Origin: Thermoproteota archaeon
Lineage (GTDB): Archaea; Asgardarchaeota; Jordiarchaeia; Jordiarchaeales; Freyrarchaeaceae
Direction of reading: 5' to 3'
NCBI GenBank assembly: GCA_029258835.1
Contig: JAPDJY010000071.1
Location: 1 to 10,454, forward strand
Length of the DNA stretch: 10,454 nt
Under the pieces are notes generated by a model. That model worked only from the letters and a program-made list of their open reading frames with translations. It searched no databases and was not told the origin of the DNA. Made by a program: the position numbers and the translations under genes. Shown piece by piece: positions 2,969-10,454 of this stretch (position 1 is its first letter; every line of letters begins with the position of its first letter).

Positions 2969-3188
2969 CCAACAATAAGCTAACAGAACCCTGTTTTCGG
3001 CTTTATTTGTTCCTTTGCTGCAGGGTTTGTGTGGTGGATGGTGTTTAGCTGGTGGCTGGCGTTTTGTTGCGAGTGCTGGGTTGGTGGAGGTGTAGGGTTA
3101 AGTTTCTTCATGGTTAGCGGCGTGCCGCTTTGCTGCTATTTTGCGTTAACGTTATAGGGTGGTTTTCCCGGGTTTTACCGTGGTGGTG

Positions 3189-3716
3189 TTGGGGCGGGGG
3201 AAGCGTGGGTTTAAGCTGACCATTGAGCTTGTTCCGTCCACGGCGTGGTTTTCCTCCCTTTACCATGTTTACAGGGAGGCGGGTAGGCTGGACGAGTGGA
3301 GGAGGCTTAAGGAGGAGCTCTTCGAGAGGGAGGGTAGGAGGTGCTGGATATGTGGGAGGAGGGGCGGGCGCTTGGAGGCTCACGAGTTCTGGGAGTACGA
3401 TGATGAAAACCACGTTCAGAGGCTGGTGGCTGTACATCATCTTTGCAGCATGTGTCATAAGGTGAAGCACATAGGGTTTTGGTGCTACACGAGGGAGGGG
3501 AGGGAGAGGCTGGCGAGGGAGGGGCTGACGAGGGAGGACCTGATCGAGCACTTTTGCAGGGTTAACAACTGTACGAGGGAGGACTTTGAGAGGCACGAGG
3601 AGGAGGCCTTCAGGAAATGGGTGGAGAGGAGTAGGCACCGGTGGAGGCAGGATCTCGGAAGCTATCATCCAGACGGGCAGCGGGTGTCGCGGCGGCCGCT
3701 GAAGGGTAGAGGCTAG
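3189..3716 (+). CDS. HNH endonuclease family protein
   Basis: KLTIELVPSTAW...CWICG...LEAHEFWEYDD...LCSMCHKVKHIG: Zn-binding CxxC pairs and an HNH-type active site. The ORF is open from 3159; TTG 3189 was chosen because GGTGGTG precedes it. Confidence 0.85.
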   Translation: MGRGKRGFKLTIELVPSTAWFSSLYHVYREAGRLDEWRRLKEELFEREGRRCWICGRRGGRLEAHEFWEYDDENHVQRLVAVHHLCSMCHKVKHIGFWCYTREGRERLAREGLTREDLIEHFCRVNNCTREDFERHEEEAFRKWVERSRHRWRQDLGSYHPDGQRVSRRPLKGRG

Positions 3717-3801
3717 CTGCCTCCTTCGCCGGGTGGCACCCTGTGAGATCGCAATGTTTATTTTGTCGTTTTTATTTTAGCATATTTTGAGGTGTCATAT
3801 T

Positions 3802-5184
3802 TTGAGGCGAAAAGTTTTCGTTGACAGGGAGCGGGAGGTTGGGCTGCTGGAGGAGCTTTGGGGGAAGCCCGGCTTCGCCCTAGTGTTCGTCTACGGGAGG
3901 AGGAGGGTTGGTAAGACGCGTATGCTCTCCGAGTTCTTTAAGGGTAAGCGTGGCGTCTACTACGTTGCGGTCGAGGCCCCGTACGAGGCGGTTTGCAGGG
4001 AGTTCTCCGAGTGCGTTAAGCGCTCCCTTAACATGCCTTTTTCCGGTGACGTTGTGGAGGTTATCGACGCCTTGTCTAGGGCTTGCGGGGAGAGGGTTCT
4101 GGTTGTGGTGGACGAGTTCCAGTATGTTGTTGAGGCTGACGGCGGCGTTGTTTCACGCCTCCAGCGCCTCATAGACTCGTCCCTTTCCGAGAGGGACCTC
4201 ATGCTCGTGCTTTGCGGGTCGGCGGTTTCGTTCTTCGAGGAGAGGCTGCTTGGGTATAGGAGCCCGCTGTTTGGGAGGAGGACCGCGTCCATCAAGCTCA
4301 AACCCTTGGGCTTCCTTCAGGTGAGGGGTTTCTTTCCAAGGTATGGGCTGGAGGACTTGCTCAGGGTTTACGCTGTGGCAGGTGGGACGCCGGCGTACCT
4401 TGAAAGGCTGAGCGATGAGGTTTGCTTCGAGGATAACCTGAGGGAGGCTGTGACCCCCGGAAGCTACCTTTACGATGAAGCCTTAAACCTGCTGAGGCAG
4501 GAGGTTAGGGAGCCGCGCACCTACCTTTCCATTCTCTCGTCTGTGGCTGAGGGGAGGACTTCTCAGGGGGAGGTTGCATCCGCAGCCCACGTGGATCCAC
4601 GTGCGTTGGTTAAGTACGTGGACTTGCTCGAGGAGCTTGAGATACTGGTGAGGGTGAGGCCGCTAGGCTACAGGAGGCCCGTCAGGCTGGAGTTCAAGGA
4701 CAACTACTTCCGGTTCTGGTTCACCTACCCCTACAGGCTCAGGAGCATGCTTGAGTCGGGCTATGTGGACGAAGCCGTCAGCTACATACTCGAAACGTTC
4801 AACGAGTACCTTTCGAGGGTTTTCGAGGGAGTGCTCGCGGAGCTGGCCCCCGCCCTGCACGCCAGGGGGCTGATAGACGCGAAGCCGGTGGAGGTTGGAA
4901 GATGGTGGCATAAGGACGTGGAGATAGACGTCGTCGTCAGGGAGCCGGGGAGGGCTGCGGTGTTCATGGAGGCGAAGTGGAGCAGAGTCAAGGTTAGAGA
5001 CGCTGAAAGGGAGCTCAGGAGGCTGGAGGAGAAGACGCTGAAAACAGGGGTTACGGCGCCGGAGAACAGCTACGTTCTGGCCGCCAGGGAGGTGGTGGAC
5101 GCGGAGACACCATACGAGGTGGACGAGCACAGGAAAATAATCGATTTAAAGGCAATCAGCAAGGTGCTAGGGTTAAAGCCGTAA
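3802..5184 (+). CDS. Archaeal ATPase (COG1672-type AAA+ ATPase, winged helix, C-terminal DUF234/PD-(D/E)XK domain)
   Basis: FVDREREV, Walker A YGRRRVGKT, Walker B VVVDEFQY, LCGS, SPLFGRRT, GGTPAYL, DNYFRFWF and GRWW...EIDVV...EAKW. TTG 3802 follows RBS GAGGTG (3789-3794); the ORF is open from 3787. Confidence 0.93.
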   Translation: MRRKVFVDREREVGLLEELWGKPGFALVFVYGRRRVGKTRMLSEFFKGKRGVYYVAVEAPYEAVCREFSECVKRSLNMPFSGDVVEVIDALSRACGERVLVVVDEFQYVVEADGGVVSRLQRLIDSSLSERDLMLVLCGSAVSFFEERLLGYRSPLFGRRTASIKLKPLGFLQVRGFFPRYGLEDLLRVYAVAGGTPAYLERLSDEVCFEDNLREAVTPGSYLYDEALNLLRQEVREPRTYLSILSSVAEGRTSQGEVASAAHVDPRALVKYVDLLEELEILVRVRPLGYRRPVRLEFKDNYFRFWFTYPYRLRSMLESGYVDEAVSYILETFNEYLSRVFEGVLAELAPALHARGLIDAKPVEVGRWWHKDVEIDVVVREPGRAAVFMEAKWSRVKVRDAERELRRLEEKTLKTGVTAPENSYVLAAREVVDAETPYEVDEHRKIIDLKAISKVLGLKP

Positions 5185-5385
5185 GCCAGCGGGCGGAGGC
5201 GAGCAAGCAAACTGGGTATCGGACGGGTGCCGCCACCATTAAGAAGGCTCCCCCACAAGCCAATCAGCAGTCAAGATGGAGGGATCAGAAGGGTTCTCTC
5301 GAGGAGCTCGTGGAGAGAAAAGGAGAGAGAAGGGTGAAGGGAGAAGGGGGTGGAGGGGAGGTGAAGCCGGAGGAGCCCGTCGAGG

Positions 5386-5680
5386 ATGGGGGAGCAGGTA
5401 GTTCTCCTAGACGTAAGCATTCTCATTGAAATGCTCGAGTGGCAGGCTTCAGATGGCATGTGAAGCCGGAGAACTCCGCCTCCTCCACCTCACTCCACGG
5501 GTAACTGGGAAGAGGAAGCCTTCTTCAGGGTCTGGAAGAAGCCCTTTAACGCCGTCAGCCTGACGGTGACGTTCCCCTTCAAGGCAGCCGAGACCCTAAG
5601 AGGGGCTGAGTACAGGTGGGAGCAACGCCCACGTAGCGGCGGCCACCCTGCATGGACAAGGAACGAAGAACCCGGTCATC
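5386..5680 (+). pseudogene. vapC: PIN-domain (VapC-like) toxin remnant, with a possible VapB remnant at about 5276-5401
   Basis: ATG 5386 reads MGEQVVLLDVSILIEML (PIN N-terminal hhhDxShhh motif). Later fragments KAAETLRG and HVAAATL...TKN lie in other frames. An upstream charged frame ends ...RGWGSR* overlapping this start. Confidence 0.45.
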
Positions 5681-8957: not shown

Positions 8958-9225
8958 ATGAAAACCAGCATCAAAAGTTGAAGAGCTACAGACACTAAAC
9001 CCTGCGATTGAGAACCGGAGGACACTCATAAAACACTTAAGCCGCGAAGCACTCCTTAAATACTTAGAACACTTAGAACAGGTAGAGAAGAAGGGGTTTG
9101 AAGTGGACAGGTTGCCGCCTGAATGGCAGTACTTCTTCTTCAGAGAGGTAACCCGGGAGAAGAGGGGAAGAAGGAGGAAGCGGAGGAAGCGCAAAGCGGG
9201 AGGGCAAACTAGAGGGAAGCCATAA
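8958..9225 (+). pseudogene. Hypothetical protein with a highly basic C-terminal tail; start probably frameshifted
   Basis: Open frame 8962-9225: KPASKVEELQTLNPAIENRRTLIKHLSREALLKYLEHLEQVEKKGFEVDRLPPEWQYFFFREVTREKRGRRRKRRKRKAGGQTRGKP*. ATG 8958 is one base out of frame next to an A4 run. Confidence 0.4.
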
Positions 9226-9251
9226 CCCAGCCACCAACCCCAGTACAACAG

Positions 9252-9686
9252 TTACTTTAAGGCTATCAGGACGCTCACCACTATGGTGAAGACGGACATC
9301 AACAACCCGAGAATAGTGAAGTAGAGACGCAGAGAACGATAAAGCTCCTCAAACCTCCTATCCACAGCCTCAAACCGCTTGTTAACATCGTCAAACCTCC
9401 TGTTCACGTCTTCGAATCTCCTGTTCACGTCCTCGAACCGCTTGTTCACATCCTCAAACCGCTTGTTCACGTCCTCAAACCTCCTGTTTACGTCCTCGAA
9501 CCTCCTGTCCATGTAGCTTATGAGCTCCTCGAACCTCTTGTTGACGTCTTCGAAGCGCTTGTTCATCGTCTCCACCAGGAGTTTTATGTCTTCTTTGGTT
9601 GCCAGGTTTCTCAGTGGGAGAGCCCTCTCAAGCTCCCTCCTGATGAGCTCTAGAACCTCAAGCCTCGCAGCATCACTCAAACCCAT
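9252..9686 (-). CDS. Membrane-anchored coiled-coil protein, copy 2 (144 aa), paralog of 7600-8076
   Basis: Same head, LATKEDI neck and TM anchor; 8 heptads plus the 11-residue insert; same RBS; TATA-like TTTATT at 9726-9721. Confidence 0.9.
   Translation of the reverse strand: MGLSDAARLEVLELIRRELERALPLRNLATKEDIKLLVETMNKRFEDVNKRFEELISYMDRRFEDVNRRFEDVNKRFEDVNKRFEDVNRRFEDVNRRFDDVNKRFEAVDRRFEELYRSLRLYFTILGLLMSVFTIVVSVLIALK
9343..9563 (-). repeat. In-frame 21-bp tandem repeats (RFEDVNK heptads)
   Basis: Same unit as in copy 1, two fewer units. Confidence 0.9.
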
Positions 9687-9699
9687 AAAGCCACCCAGC

Positions 9700-10175
9700 T
9701 AAACCCTAAACAAAAACAAAAATAAACCTTTTGATTCAGGGCCAACCGGCCGAACACGCACACCACCGAAAAGAAGCCGAAAAACACCAACATAAAAGAC
9801 GCCAACAACCCAGACACGCAAACAGAACAGAACACCAGCCAAAACCGGTTTAACGGCTTCACCCCTCCACCCAAGCAGAATAAAACAGAAAAGCCAGACA
9901 CCCAAAACAAAAACCAACCCTCCCCAGCCACCAAACACAAACCACACAAAAACAAAACAAAAACACTAAAAACAGCGAAGGAAACCACCAACCACACCAA
10001 AGCCACCCCAACCACCCAACAAACAAAAAACACCACCAAACAACAAAAACCACAAACATAAACCCACCACAACCCAACCACCAACAAAAAGACACCAACA
10101 TAAACCCCACAACCAAACACCCCAACAAAAGAAAACCCAAACCCCCATTAAAACAACCCCAAACCAACAACACAA
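9700..10175 (+). other. Non-coding A/C-rich low-complexity tract
   Basis: Long stretches almost free of G and T (for example 9990-10170). The overlapping minus-strand V/G/F/L/W/C ORFs are compositional by-products. Confidence 0.8.
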
Positions 10176-10454
10176 TCCTGCAACCATTGCGTGGTGCACG
10201 AACTCTGCATTGGAGAACTGTTAAAAATGGAAACATGGAAAAACAGGCTCATAAAACCAAAACAGAAAAAACAAAACACTAAAACAGTTAAAATTAAAAA
10301 ACAAGGGTTTTAATGGGTAATCCACCATTGCGAGATCAACGATCAAATATATGTTTTTCGGGTTCGACAAAAGACGAAAAAAGAGGAGAAGGAAACCAGC
10401 AGAAAAAGGAGGAAAAAGAAAACCTTAAAAAGGAAAAAAGAAGAAAAAACAACC

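What the first reader, a model, noticed from the sequence alone, without database searches (positions are those of the whole stretch)
2990..10180. Kilobase-scale G/T to A/C polarity domains, suggesting a position-dependent strand-asymmetric mutational process
Seen on the + strand: G/T-rich about 3000-3200, grading to A/C-rich about 6350-6600; an AT-rich spacer 6620-6930; G/T-rich about 7080-7450; and extreme A/C about 9700-10180. Genes in the first block are on + and the main genes in the second are on -, so the polarity does not follow transcription direction. Each block is compositionally self-inverted. Pseudogenes near the edges erode toward the local bias. Inference: a local process (repair-patch synthesis, dispersed or recombination-dependent replication starts, ssDNA editing, or protein-bound boundaries) imposes mirror-image substitution bias. 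I do not know of a mechanism that explains this.
Basis: partly seen in the sequence, partly recalled or inferred. Interest (0 to 1): 0.75.

Follow-up and report, generated by a model that had tools for sequence, protein, structure and literature searches.

The report
Kilobase strand-specific hypermutation tracts
In four stretches of this Asgard archaeon's DNA, nearly every C and A on one strand has been replaced by T and G; they belong to a genome-wide, inherited pattern that spreads from fixed start points, reaches even essential genes, and was not described in the papers I searched.

Summary
The four tracts are extreme: keto skew is +0.56, -0.51, +0.45 and -0.74, and -0.90 in the core of the last. 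Only 0.22% of the genome's 200-nt windows reach 0.56. Skew falls linearly inside each block (r = -0.86 and -0.83).

The tracts are mutational. A purine/pyrimidine-alphabet search shows that window 7038-7470 is a copy of an intact CARF gene on contig C59, with C>T 72 and A>G 45 against T>C 7 and G>A 6. Tract 2 is the decayed 3' half of an MNT antitoxin gene that is intact in a relative.

About 70 such tracts occur genome-wide. The same bias saturates third codon positions of intact EF-2, EF-1alpha and RpoA''. It also flanks the 16S gene and CRISPR arrays, and it recurs at the same sites in related genomes.

Sharp A/C-to-G/T jumps outnumber the reverse 14:1, so the process radiates from discrete start sites. 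My best guess for what anchors it is transcription- or R-loop-linked exposure of one strand (about 0.45). Locally primed DNA synthesis is the main rival.

Independent metagenome contigs support tracts 1-3. This scan has noted similar tracts in other genomes. I found no published description.

The parts
2180..2800 (+). AT-rich MNT/HEPN-type toxin-antitoxin cassette to the left of tract 1. It is not skewed.
   Evidence: Reading of the sequence. Depth in four metagenome or RNA runs is about 100 times that of the rest of the window.
2969..2990 (+). Conserved 22-nt motif CCAACAATAAGCTAACAGAACC. Tract 1 starts immediately after it.
   Evidence: About six copies occur in the genome (C44 twice, C59, C14 twice, and here). 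They are followed by G/T-rich DNA or, in one case, by a CRISPR array.
2991..3200 (+). Tract 1: a G/T-rich non-coding leader with a sharp 5' edge.
   Evidence: Skew +0.56. Change point at 2992. Covered by independent contigs. Homologs of the next gene in G001 and G002 have no such tract upstream.
3159..3716 (+). Small Cys/His-rich gene with no Pfam hit. It is intact, and its third positions are pushed to G/T.
   Evidence: Third-position skew +0.49, the 99.5th percentile. Against the G002 homolog, third-position A>G is 22 and G>A is 0. No Pfam family.
3787..5184 (+). ATPase_2 / DUF234 gene, intact, carrying the same A>G bias on the + strand.
   Evidence: Pfam 1e-26 and 9e-21. Against relatives, third-position A>G is 94 and G>A is 1.
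5792..6178 (+). HEPN pseudogene. Only the C-terminal part is still in frame.
   Evidence: Colinear with the intact HEPN gene of G007 at L041:1613-2017.
6175..6600 (+). MNT nucleotidyltransferase pseudogene. Its 3' half has eroded into tract 2.
   Evidence: The MNT gene of G007 is intact (139 aa). Over window 6300-6599, relative-to-window changes are G>A 24 and T>C 25 against A>G 7 and C>T 3.
6330..6615 (-). Tract 2: G/T-rich on the minus strand, with a sharp edge at about 6610 next to the spacer.
   Evidence: Skew -0.51. Covered by independent contigs.
6616..7037 (.). AT-rich, unskewed spacer from which tracts 2 and 3 diverge. It is the candidate start zone.
   Evidence: GC 0.41, skew -0.03. 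No Rfam match and no convincing ORF. TATA-like boxes lie near both edges, by eye.
7038..7580 (+). Tract 3: G/T-rich on the plus strand. It contains a hypermutated CARF (Cas_APE2256) pseudogene on the minus strand, at 7038-7470.
   Evidence: Purine/pyrimidine-alphabet BLAST scores 160-164 bits against a control maximum of about 83. Against C59:3104-3504, nucleotide identity is 53% and R/Y identity 88%; C>T 72 and A>G 45 against T>C 7 and G>A 6. The C59 copy is an intact Cas_APE2256 gene (3e-31).
7600..8088 (-). Membrane-anchored coiled-coil gene, copy 1.
   Evidence: Paralog of 9252-9686 and of C59:4048-4494. Differences between the two window copies are polarised: 27 transitions in one direction against 5 in the other (p = 1e-4).
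9252..9686 (-). Membrane-anchored coiled-coil gene, copy 2.
   Evidence: A further copy at C48:16394-16553 is hypermutated (T>C 27, G>A 19 against 1 and 3).
9690..10300 (-). Tract 4: a G/T-rich minus-strand leader upstream of copy 2. It is the most extreme tract.
   Evidence: Skew -0.74, with a core of -0.90. Window 10078-10418 is colinear, in R/Y space, with the leader of the C59 copy, which starts at the 22-nt motif. The core is not covered by the independent contigs.

Best explanation
Shown. The tracts are ordinary sequence (genes, pseudogenes, leaders) in which one strand has accumulated C>T and A>G substitutions almost to saturation, with fewer C>G and A>T changes. The affected strand is always the one running 5'->3' away from a discrete start site. 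The bias begins sharply there and fades over 0.3-2 kb. Two facing tracts therefore give a linear sawtooth, and each block looks self-inverted. Where selection preserves function, only silent sites change. Where it does not, in pseudogenes and spacers, the DNA becomes almost pure G/T on one strand.

Inferred. The start sites are places where the duplex is opened again and again by transcription initiation. These are strong promoters, partly bidirectional, or AT-rich islands that behave like promoters. The non-template strand is left single-stranded, probably in R-loops, in a heat-loving organism. On that strand cytosine deaminates to uracil and adenine to hypoxanthine. G-enrichment of the displaced strand would stabilise R-loops further and could make the process run away at a minority of loci.

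In this window the proposed starts are:
- the 22-nt motif at 2969-2990, reading rightward into tract 1 and the + operon;
- the two edges of the AT-rich spacer at 6616-7037, reading leftward into tract 2 and rightward into tract 3, antisense into dead genes;
- a site at or beyond 10300-10454, reading leftward into tract 4 and coiled-coil gene copy 2.
For: Mutational origin:
- A hypermutated CARF copy against its intact paralog gives 117 keto-directed transitions against 13 (p = 4e-22).
- The MNT pseudogene against the intact gene of a relative gives 49 against 10.
- Three further pairs behave the same way.
- Per site, A changed at 71% and C at 61%, against 19% for G and 17% for T, with no neighbour context.

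A regional bias, not codon selection:
- Third-position skew of 1134 long ORFs averages 0.00 +/- 0.16 but correlates with the skew of flanking non-coding DNA (rho 0.41 and 0.45).

Start-site geometry:
- Sharp A/C-to-G/T jumps number 14, against 1 sharp reverse jump.
- The decline inside the window's blocks is linear.

Link to transcription:
- EF-1alpha, RpoA'' and most of EF-2 have third positions that are 80-100% G/T on the sense strand.
- DNA downstream of the 16S gene and of a CRISPR array is G/T-rich in sense.
- t1, t4 and the C59 and C44 homologs lie in sense between the conserved motif and the next gene.
- Many starts follow TATA-like boxes.
- In all three highly expressed genes the G/T run begins 30-60 nt after an AT-rich island.
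- tRNA genes tend to have A/C-rich sense strands upstream (15 of 20, p = 0.012). That is what divergent initiation would give.

Heritable and site-specific:
- The 16S polarity recurs in G001, G002, G008 and G023.
- The EF-2 flip recurs at the same codons in G006-G008.

Precedent: a G+T excess on the non-template strand is the known sign of transcription-associated asymmetry (PMC10030826).
Against: - No transcript start, R-loop or expression data exist for any start site. The one RNA run gave only low-depth contigs, at 3102-3287 (over part of t1) and at three places inside block 1.
- Several stretches that must be transcribed in sense are A/C-rich in sense. These are the first 60 codons of EF-2 (third positions -1.0), the 16S leader, the VTT/DedA gene upstream of the 16S gene (-0.72) and the CRISPR leader of C16 (97% A/C). 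To fit, each needs antisense or divergent transcription to outweigh sense transcription. That is ad hoc for EF-2.
- An average gene shows no sense bias (mean 0.00).
- A>G is at least as frequent per site as C>T. Spontaneous adenine deamination is much slower than cytosine deamination (own knowledge), so repair differences or a polymerase-error origin would be needed.
- EndoV, UDG and NucS genes are all present, so no obvious repair defect explains the strength of the bias.
Confidence: 0.45

Rival explanations
1. Local DNA-synthesis starts. Short bidirectional replication-like or repair synthesis begins repeatedly at the start sites, for example primed by R-loops or recombination intermediates in heavily transcribed DNA. 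Either the displaced or lagging-template strand is left single-stranded and deaminates, or the new strand is made by a low-fidelity polymerase that favours G.T mispairs. Either way the result is a miniature version of the skew around replication origins.
For: - Polarity always diverges from the centre, whatever the direction of the genes: EF-2 5' part, 16S upstream arm, CRISPR leader, VTT gene.
- Upward jumps are sharp (14:1) and declines are linear. This is the shape of the skew 'N-domains' around mammalian origins (own knowledge).
- The sign matches the bacterial leading strand, which is G/T-rich (PMC10030826).
- Near-equal per-site A>G and C>T fits a mispair origin or the mtDNA-type effect of time spent single-stranded.
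- Origin-independent, recombination-dependent replication is documented in Thermococcales and Haloferax (PMC5333045, PMC11005403).
Against: - There is no evidence of initiation at these sites.
- The range is only 0.3-2 kb.
- In EF-1alpha and RpoA'' only the sense-direction arm is present, and in EF-2 it is far longer than the other arm. An origin-type model does not predict this.
- t1 and t4 have no opposite arm.
Confidence: 0.25
2. Episodic enzymatic or break-associated hypermutation. One form is a kataegis-like deamination of resected single strands at double-strand breaks. Another is a defence deaminase or a RIP-like system that attacks duplicated or foreign DNA in this defence island.
For: - Hypermutated copies of CARF, coiled-coil, MNT and CRISPR-unit sequences sit in CRISPR-accessory or defence neighbourhoods.
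- Keto-directed transversions are also polarised (C>G 17:1, A>T 7:1), as would follow from bypass of abasic sites after glycosylase action.
Against: - 5'->3' resection exposes the 3' tails, which predicts G/T-to-A/C jumps at the break. The observed sharp jumps run the other way, 14:1.
- There is no TC/WRC or other neighbour preference.
- A>G is as common as C>T.
- Single-copy essential genes (EF-2, EF-1alpha, RpoA'') are affected at silent sites only, and at positions conserved between families. That indicates a slow, continuing bias rather than bursts against repeats.
Confidence: 0.07
3. Selection for composition. The tracts encode G/U-only or A/C-only RNAs, such as unstructured leaders or processing stems, or they are protein-binding DNA. 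On this view the bias is adaptive.
For: - The 16S leader (A/C-rich) and trailer (G/U-rich) pair to form the processing stem (arms z = 9.7).
- Transversions toward G/T are also enriched.
Against: - The same bias fills the synonymous sites of unrelated genes in either orientation.
- It overruns dead genes.
- It flips inside ORFs.
- The window's tract pairs are not complementary beyond their composition (z <= 1.8).
- No Rfam family matches.
Confidence: 0.05
4. Imported skew. Each block is a piece of a foreign replicon, such as a linear element replicated from both ends by protein-primed strand displacement, and it brought its own 5'-G/T ... A/C-3' gradient with it.
For: - Each block has sharp outer edges and an inward gradient on both strands.
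- The island consists of mobile-type defence genes.
- The homolog of the first gene of block 1 sits in other genomic contexts in relatives.
Against: - The blocks contain no polymerase, terminal protein or terminal inverted repeats.
- The same pattern occurs in core genes and around the 16S gene, at conserved positions in relatives.
- The intact paralogs of the mutated copies are in the same genome.
Confidence: 0.04
5. Assembly or sequencing artefact in low-complexity DNA.
For: The t4 core (9773-10121) had essentially no cover in the four runs laid.
Against: - Contigs from three independent studies span t1, t2, the spacer and t3 at 92-99% identity.
- Tracts lie inside long contigs and inside intact conserved ORFs, and they recur in related genomes.
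Confidence: 0.02

Closest known systems
Transcription-associated strand asymmetry. [quoted passage not shown]
   Same: The sign is the same (G and T enriched on the sense strand of EF-1alpha, RpoA'' and most of EF-2, and of the leaders t1 and t4). The substitution types are the same (C>T, A>G). There is a sharp onset near putative starts.
   Different: - The known effect amounts to a few percent. Here it reaches 80-100% of free sites.
- It is confined to about 70 loci rather than affecting all genes.
- It often runs antisense into neighbouring genes and flips inside ORFs.
- PMC12999951 argues that transcription-linked skew should be weak in archaea.
Replication-associated skew. Examples are the G/T-rich bacterial leading strand (PMC10030826, PMC3269012) and the sawtooth 'N-domains' between mammalian origins (own knowledge: Touchon 2005, Huvet 2007).
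   Same: An upward jump from A/C to G/T at a centre, a linear decline to the next centre, and independence from gene orientation.
   Different: - The scale is 1-4 kb rather than 100 kb to Mb.
- The amplitude is near saturation.
- The centres are promoters, rRNA or CRISPR loci and AT-rich islands, not known origins.
- Most of the genome shows no skew.
Heavy-strand compositional gradient of vertebrate mitochondrial DNA (PMC3269012; own knowledge: Reyes 1998, Faith and Pollock 2003).
   Same: C>T and A>G on the strand left single-stranded, graded with exposure and visible at silent sites. The result is a G/T-rich strand.
   Different: This is a cellular chromosome with many short tracts of alternating polarity. 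No strand-displacement replication is known here.
Kataegis: APOBEC strand-coordinated mutation clusters near breaks (PMC10030826).
   Same: Kilobase, strand-coordinated clusters that switch strand across a point.
   Different: - The polarity across the point is the opposite of what resection predicts.
- There is no TpC context.
- A>G is as frequent as C>T.
- The pattern is germline, conserved across families, and filtered by purifying selection.
Repeat-induced point mutation (RIP) of fungi (own knowledge).
   Same: Duplicated genes are ruined by dense transitions. Copies can be recognised only after collapsing the transitions.
   Different: Single-copy essential genes are also affected. Both C>T and A>G occur on one strand. 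There is no dinucleotide context. Polarity depends on position, not on duplication.

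Membership tests
Transcription-associated strand asymmetry | G+T excess on the non-template (sense) strand of transcribed DNA | tested here: inconclusive
   Met for EF-1alpha, RpoA'', EF-2 codons 108-430, DNA downstream of the 16S gene, and t1 and t4 relative to the adjacent genes. Not met for EF-2 codons 0-60, the VTT gene, the 16S leader and the C16 CRISPR leader.
Transcription-associated strand asymmetry | Onset at mapped transcription start sites, with strength scaling with expression | not testable with these tools
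   Only assembled RNA contigs were available. No TSS or expression data exist for this uncultured organism.
Replication-origin skew | Sign switch from A/C to G/T (leading strand G/T-rich) at the initiation site | tested here: met
   14 sharp -|+ jumps against 1 sharp +|- jump. The window's spacer at 6616-7037 lies between t2 and t3.
Replication-origin skew | An origin at the switch (Orc1/Cdc6 gene, ORB repeats, marker-frequency peak), with skew extending over replichores | not tested
   I made no search for ORB or Orc1 at the centres. Tracts span only 0.3-2 kb and most of the genome is unskewed, which is unlike a replichore.
mtDNA-type single-strand-exposure gradient | C>T and A>G on one strand, graded with distance, at silent and non-coding sites | tested here: met
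mtDNA-type single-strand-exposure gradient | A known mode of replication that leaves that strand single-stranded | not testable with these tools
   There are no replication data for this lineage.
Kataegis / APOBEC-type clusters | Cytosine-only changes in a TpC (or WRC) context | tested here: not met
   C>T frequency is 48-60% whatever the 5' or 3' neighbour. A>G occurs at 56% of A sites.
Kataegis / APOBEC-type clusters | Strand switch across a break in the sense expected from 5'->3' resection (G/T then A/C) | tested here: not met
   The observed sharp switches are A/C then G/T, 14:1.
RIP-like repeat-directed mutation | Mutation confined to duplicated sequence | tested here: not met
   Single-copy EF-2, EF-1alpha and RpoA'' are saturated at third positions.
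Mobile element with terminal inverted repeats | The two ends of a block are reverse complements in sequence, not only in composition | tested here: not met
   Local alignment of tract pairs against shuffles gives z from -1.0 to 1.8.

The most novel reading that the evidence does not exclude
Jordarchaeales-type Asgard archaea have discrete, sequence-defined zones, conserved across families, where DNA synthesis starts independently of classical origins. These starts would be primed at R-loops in heavily transcribed genes. Repeated firing would have written a eukaryote-like sawtooth ('N-domain') skew into the chromosome at kilobase scale. Such tracts would then be a sequence-only map of non-canonical replication or repair initiation in the closest prokaryotic relatives of eukaryotes.
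Probability: 0.2. Interest if true: 0.9.

Novelty: new variant of a known kind. Interest (0 to 1): 0.72.

Why it matters
Strand-asymmetric mutation is normally a faint, chromosome-wide signal. Here it is local, close to saturation and anchored at fixed points. It overwrites pseudogenes so thoroughly that ordinary BLAST no longer finds them, and it drives every silent site of EF-2 or RpoA'' to G/T.

- If transcription or R-loops anchor it, it would be the strongest natural case of transcription-associated mutagenesis that I know of, and a sequence-only readout of promoter activity, including divergent and antisense activity, in uncultured archaea.
- If DNA-synthesis starts anchor it, it maps non-canonical initiation in Asgard archaea.
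- Either way it matters for annotation, because all-open reading frames in G/T-only DNA create false genes and hidden pseudogenes need purine/pyrimidine-alphabet searches.
- It matters for phylogenetics of marker genes such as EF-2, which carry strong non-stationary composition.
- It also bears on models of DNA damage and repair at high temperature.

Tried and rejected
- BLAST E-values in the two-letter purine/pyrimidine alphabet are meaningless: thousands of 'significant' hits appeared. I used reversed-query controls instead, which gave a noise ceiling of about 83 bits.
- A multiple alignment of the four tract starts showed no shared sequence beyond composition. A low-gap-penalty R/Y alignment of C60 against C48 gave spurious blocks.
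- Inverted-repeat test of tract pairs: negative.
- Polarising the differences between the two coiled-coil paralogs with outgroup copies left 21 sites ambiguous and too few resolved. The direction of change between the two window copies therefore stays unknown.
- A 'de-mutated' translation of the MNT 3' half against a distant paralog on C81 was inconclusive. The order-level ortholog settled the question instead.
- Rfam found nothing in the window, and only the 16S gene in eight tract-bearing loci.
- A sigma-70-type promoter scan of the spacer is not informative for an archaeon.
- RNA run X17 gave only low-depth contigs, one over part of t1 (3102-3287) and three inside block 1, and high-depth contigs only on the TA cassette. 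This is no evidence for or against transcription of the tracts.
- The t4 core was not covered in the four runs.
- EndoV, UDG and NucS are present in this genome and most relatives, so no repair-gene loss explains the pattern.
- Anchoring the EF-2 third-position profile failed for family-level and phylum-level relatives, because the motif was not in the fetched stretch. Conservation is therefore shown only for G006-G008.
- The tRNA aggregate is weak: 20 usable genes, some of them doubtful predictions with long introns.
The stretch is a CARF (Cas_APE2256) pseudogene.
- Literature searches found no description of such tracts.

Full report
**Source.** The window is a whole 10,454-nt contig (C60) of a 2.72-Mb, 91-contig draft genome. 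Earlier notes of this scan place the genome in the Asgard class Jordarchaeia. I did not verify that placement. The metagenome runs that hold the sequence are from hydrothermal-vent and marine sediment.

**Observation.**
- Keto skew (G+T-A-C)/n is +0.56 in 2991-3200 (t1) and -0.51 in 6330-6615 (t2).
- It is -0.03 in the 41%-GC spacer at 6616-7037.
- It is +0.45 in 7038-7580 (t3) and -0.74 in 9690-10180 (t4).
- The t4 core, 9901-10100, is 95% A+C.
- The genome-wide standard deviation for 200-nt windows is 0.129. Only 0.22% of windows reach 0.56 and five reach 0.9.
- Inside each block the skew declines linearly (r = -0.86 and -0.83).
- Contigs assembled independently from three other studies cover t1, t2, the spacer and t3. 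The t4 core was not covered; a repeat inside it (9937-9972) was skipped by the tool.

The description is therefore correct and far beyond chance.

**What the tracts are made of.** G/T-only DNA has no stop codons in any frame on either strand, so the many ORFs in the tracts are meaningless. A strand that has undergone only C>T and A>G changes keeps its purine/pyrimidine pattern, so I searched the genome in a two-letter R/Y alphabet with reversed-query controls.
- Window 7038-7416 (and on to 7470) matches C59:3104-3504 at 160-164 bits, against a noise ceiling of about 83. Ordinary blastn misses this match.
- Nucleotide identity is 53% but R/Y identity is 88%. The differences from C59 to the window are C>T 72 and A>G 45, against T>C 7 and G>A 6.
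- The C59 copy is an intact 283-aa Cas_APE2256 (CARF) gene on the minus strand (3e-31). It is followed by the same coiled-coil gene as in the window. So t3 is a hypermutated CARF pseudogene, not the tyrosine recombinase suggested in another note.
- t2 is the 3' half of an MNT nucleotidyltransferase gene. The order-level relative G007 has an intact HEPN-MNT pair colinear with window 5800-6590. Over 6300-6599 the window differs from it by G>A 24 and T>C 25, against A>G 7 and C>T 3.
- Further mutated/unmutated pairs were found: a coiled-coil copy on C48 (46 against 4), window 7250-7389 against C49, C65 against C21, and CRISPR repeat-spacer units next to a tract on C2.
- Pooled over the four best pairs, 71% of A sites and 61% of C sites changed, against 19% of G and 17% of T. 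There was no nearest-neighbour preference.
- Transversions toward G/T are also enriched (C>G 17:1, A>T 7:1).
- The two coiled-coil paralogs inside the window differ by 27 transitions in one direction against 5 in the other.

**The bias also acts on living genes.**
- Third codon positions of 1134 long ORFs average 0.00 +/- 0.16.
- The Cys/His-rich gene after t1 scores +0.49 (99.5th percentile) and the ATPase +0.22.
- Against homologs in relatives, the ATPase shows third-position A>G 94 against G>A 1.
- Third-position skew correlates with the skew of the 200 nt of non-coding DNA on either side (rho 0.41 and 0.45). This is a regional mutational pressure, not codon selection.

**Genome-wide picture.**
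- About 70 tracts reach |0.45|. Most of the genome is unskewed.
- Tracts start sharply and fade in the 5'->3' direction of the G/T-rich strand.
- Sharp A/C-to-G/T jumps number 14, against one sharp reverse jump. Reverse transitions are gradual, which gives a sawtooth.
- Starts lie at both ends of CRISPR arrays (C49, C59, and the C16 leader, which is 97% A/C on the array's sense strand).
- Starts also lie on both sides of the only 16S gene, directly upstream of tRNA-Met, and after a conserved 22-nt motif that precedes t1 and five other sites.
- The leader of the C59 coiled-coil gene starts at that motif. It is colinear in R/Y space with window 10078-10418, so the equivalent start for t4 probably lies at or just beyond the contig end.

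**The most striking cases are essential genes.**
- In EF-2, third positions are 100% A/C in codons 24-60. They flip across an AT-rich stretch (the YLINLVD codons) and are 80-100% G/T from codon 108 to about 430.
- RpoA'' is about 90-100% G/T from codon 80 to its end. EF-1alpha is similar from codon 70.
- A VTT/DedA gene upstream of the 16S gene is -0.72 in sense.

**The pattern is inherited and site-specific.**
- The 16S polarity (sense strand A/C-rich upstream, G/T-rich downstream) recurs in G001 and G002 (same family), in G008 (same order), and in G023.
- The EF-2 flip recurs at the same codons in G006-G008.
- Homologs of the window's first gene in G001 and G002 lie in other genomic contexts and have no tract upstream. 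The window's tracts therefore arose locally.

**Mechanism.** The geometry excludes several ideas.
- Exposure of resected 3' tails at breaks (the kataegis model) predicts the opposite jump polarity.
- Forks stalling at barriers also predict the opposite polarity.
- Terminal inverted repeats are absent.
- Selection for RNA composition cannot explain silent sites in genes of either orientation.
- There is no enzyme-like sequence context.

Two models give the observed rule, 'G/T on the strand running away from a centre'.

*Model (a): divergent transcription from strong or promoter-like sites, with damage to the displaced non-template strand.*
- In favour: the sense polarity of three highly expressed genes, of the region downstream of the 16S gene and of a CRISPR array, and of t1 and t4.
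- In favour: TATA-like boxes lie before many starts.
- In favour: the G/T run begins 30-60 nt after an AT-rich island.
- Against: the sense-A/C state of the EF-2 5' end, of the 16S leader (which is constrained by pairing with the G/U-rich trailer) and of CRISPR leaders.

*Model (b): short bidirectional DNA synthesis from such sites.*
- In favour: divergent polarity that ignores gene direction.
- In favour: the sawtooth shape.
- In favour: the near-equal A>G and C>T rates.
- Against: the dominance of the sense-direction arm, and the absence of any initiation data.

I rate (a) at 0.45 and (b) at 0.25. Both invoke repeated exposure or copying of one strand at fixed opening sites. EndoV, UDG and NucS are present.

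**Comparison with what is known.**
- The sign and the substitution types match transcription-associated asymmetry and leading-strand skew (PMC10030826), and the mtDNA heavy-strand gradient (PMC3269012).
- The kilobase scale, near-saturation, sawtooth shape and intragenic flips do not match any of them.
- A 2026 survey of archaeal skews treats only genome-wide GC skew and concludes that it is weak (PMC12999951).
- Searches for strand asymmetry, R-loops or skew in archaea, and for Jordarchaeia, found no description.
- This scan has logged comparable tracts in other genomes, in Caldarchaeales, a nanohaloarchaeon, a sediment archaeon and a cyanobacterial relative. It has also logged several more in this genome. 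I treat these as leads. I re-tested only the EF-2 and paralog notes.

**Verdict.** The mutational reading is supported. The claim that the pattern ignores transcription is not established. The anchoring mechanism is unresolved. This is a new, extreme, local variant of strand-asymmetric mutation.

Noticed in passing
window 2095-3141: The AT-rich MNT/HEPN toxin-antitoxin cassette and its right flank have 100-1000 times the contig depth of the rest of the window in three DNA runs and one RNA run. Many loose ends fall at 2844-2964. This is a widely shared, multi-copy cassette with a boundary near 2963.
   Followed up: partly
window 2969-2990; C44:8896-8917 and 12177-12198; C59:4838-4859; C14:52458-52479 and 53838-53859: A conserved 22-nt motif, CCAAYAATAAGYYAACARAACC, has a similar 10-nt lead-in at each copy. 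It precedes G/T-rich leaders of defence-type genes, and in one case lies about 45 nt before a CRISPR array. It could be a shared promoter or leader module, or a recombination site.
   Followed up: partly
window 7600-8088 and 9252-9686; C59:4048-4494; C39:3834-4352; C24, C75, C53, C21, C48: A family of membrane-anchored coiled-coil proteins built from FEDVNKR-type repeats, with variable repeat number. In C59, and in decayed form in the window, it sits next to a CARF gene and a CRISPR array, so it may be a CRISPR accessory protein.
   Followed up: partly
L001 (C3) 5500-5760, minus strand: About 300-550 nt downstream of the 16S gene, a 260-nt stretch of normal composition is embedded between G/U-only spacers. 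It looks like a conserved, functional RNA but had no Rfam match at gathering score.
   Followed up: no
L002 (C16) 3650-4565, minus strand: An ORF between cas1 and the CRISPR leader has a strongly G/T-enriched sense strand and Cys-rich motifs. I did not identify it.
   Followed up: no
window 385-594: Contigs from runs X2 and X3 replace 208 nt here with 171 other letters. This is a strain-level replacement in the left, unskewed part of the window.
   Followed up: no
C35:3001-3750: A long (TTTTG)n microsatellite scores as a skew tract. It is a different thing from the hypermutation tracts.
   Followed up: no
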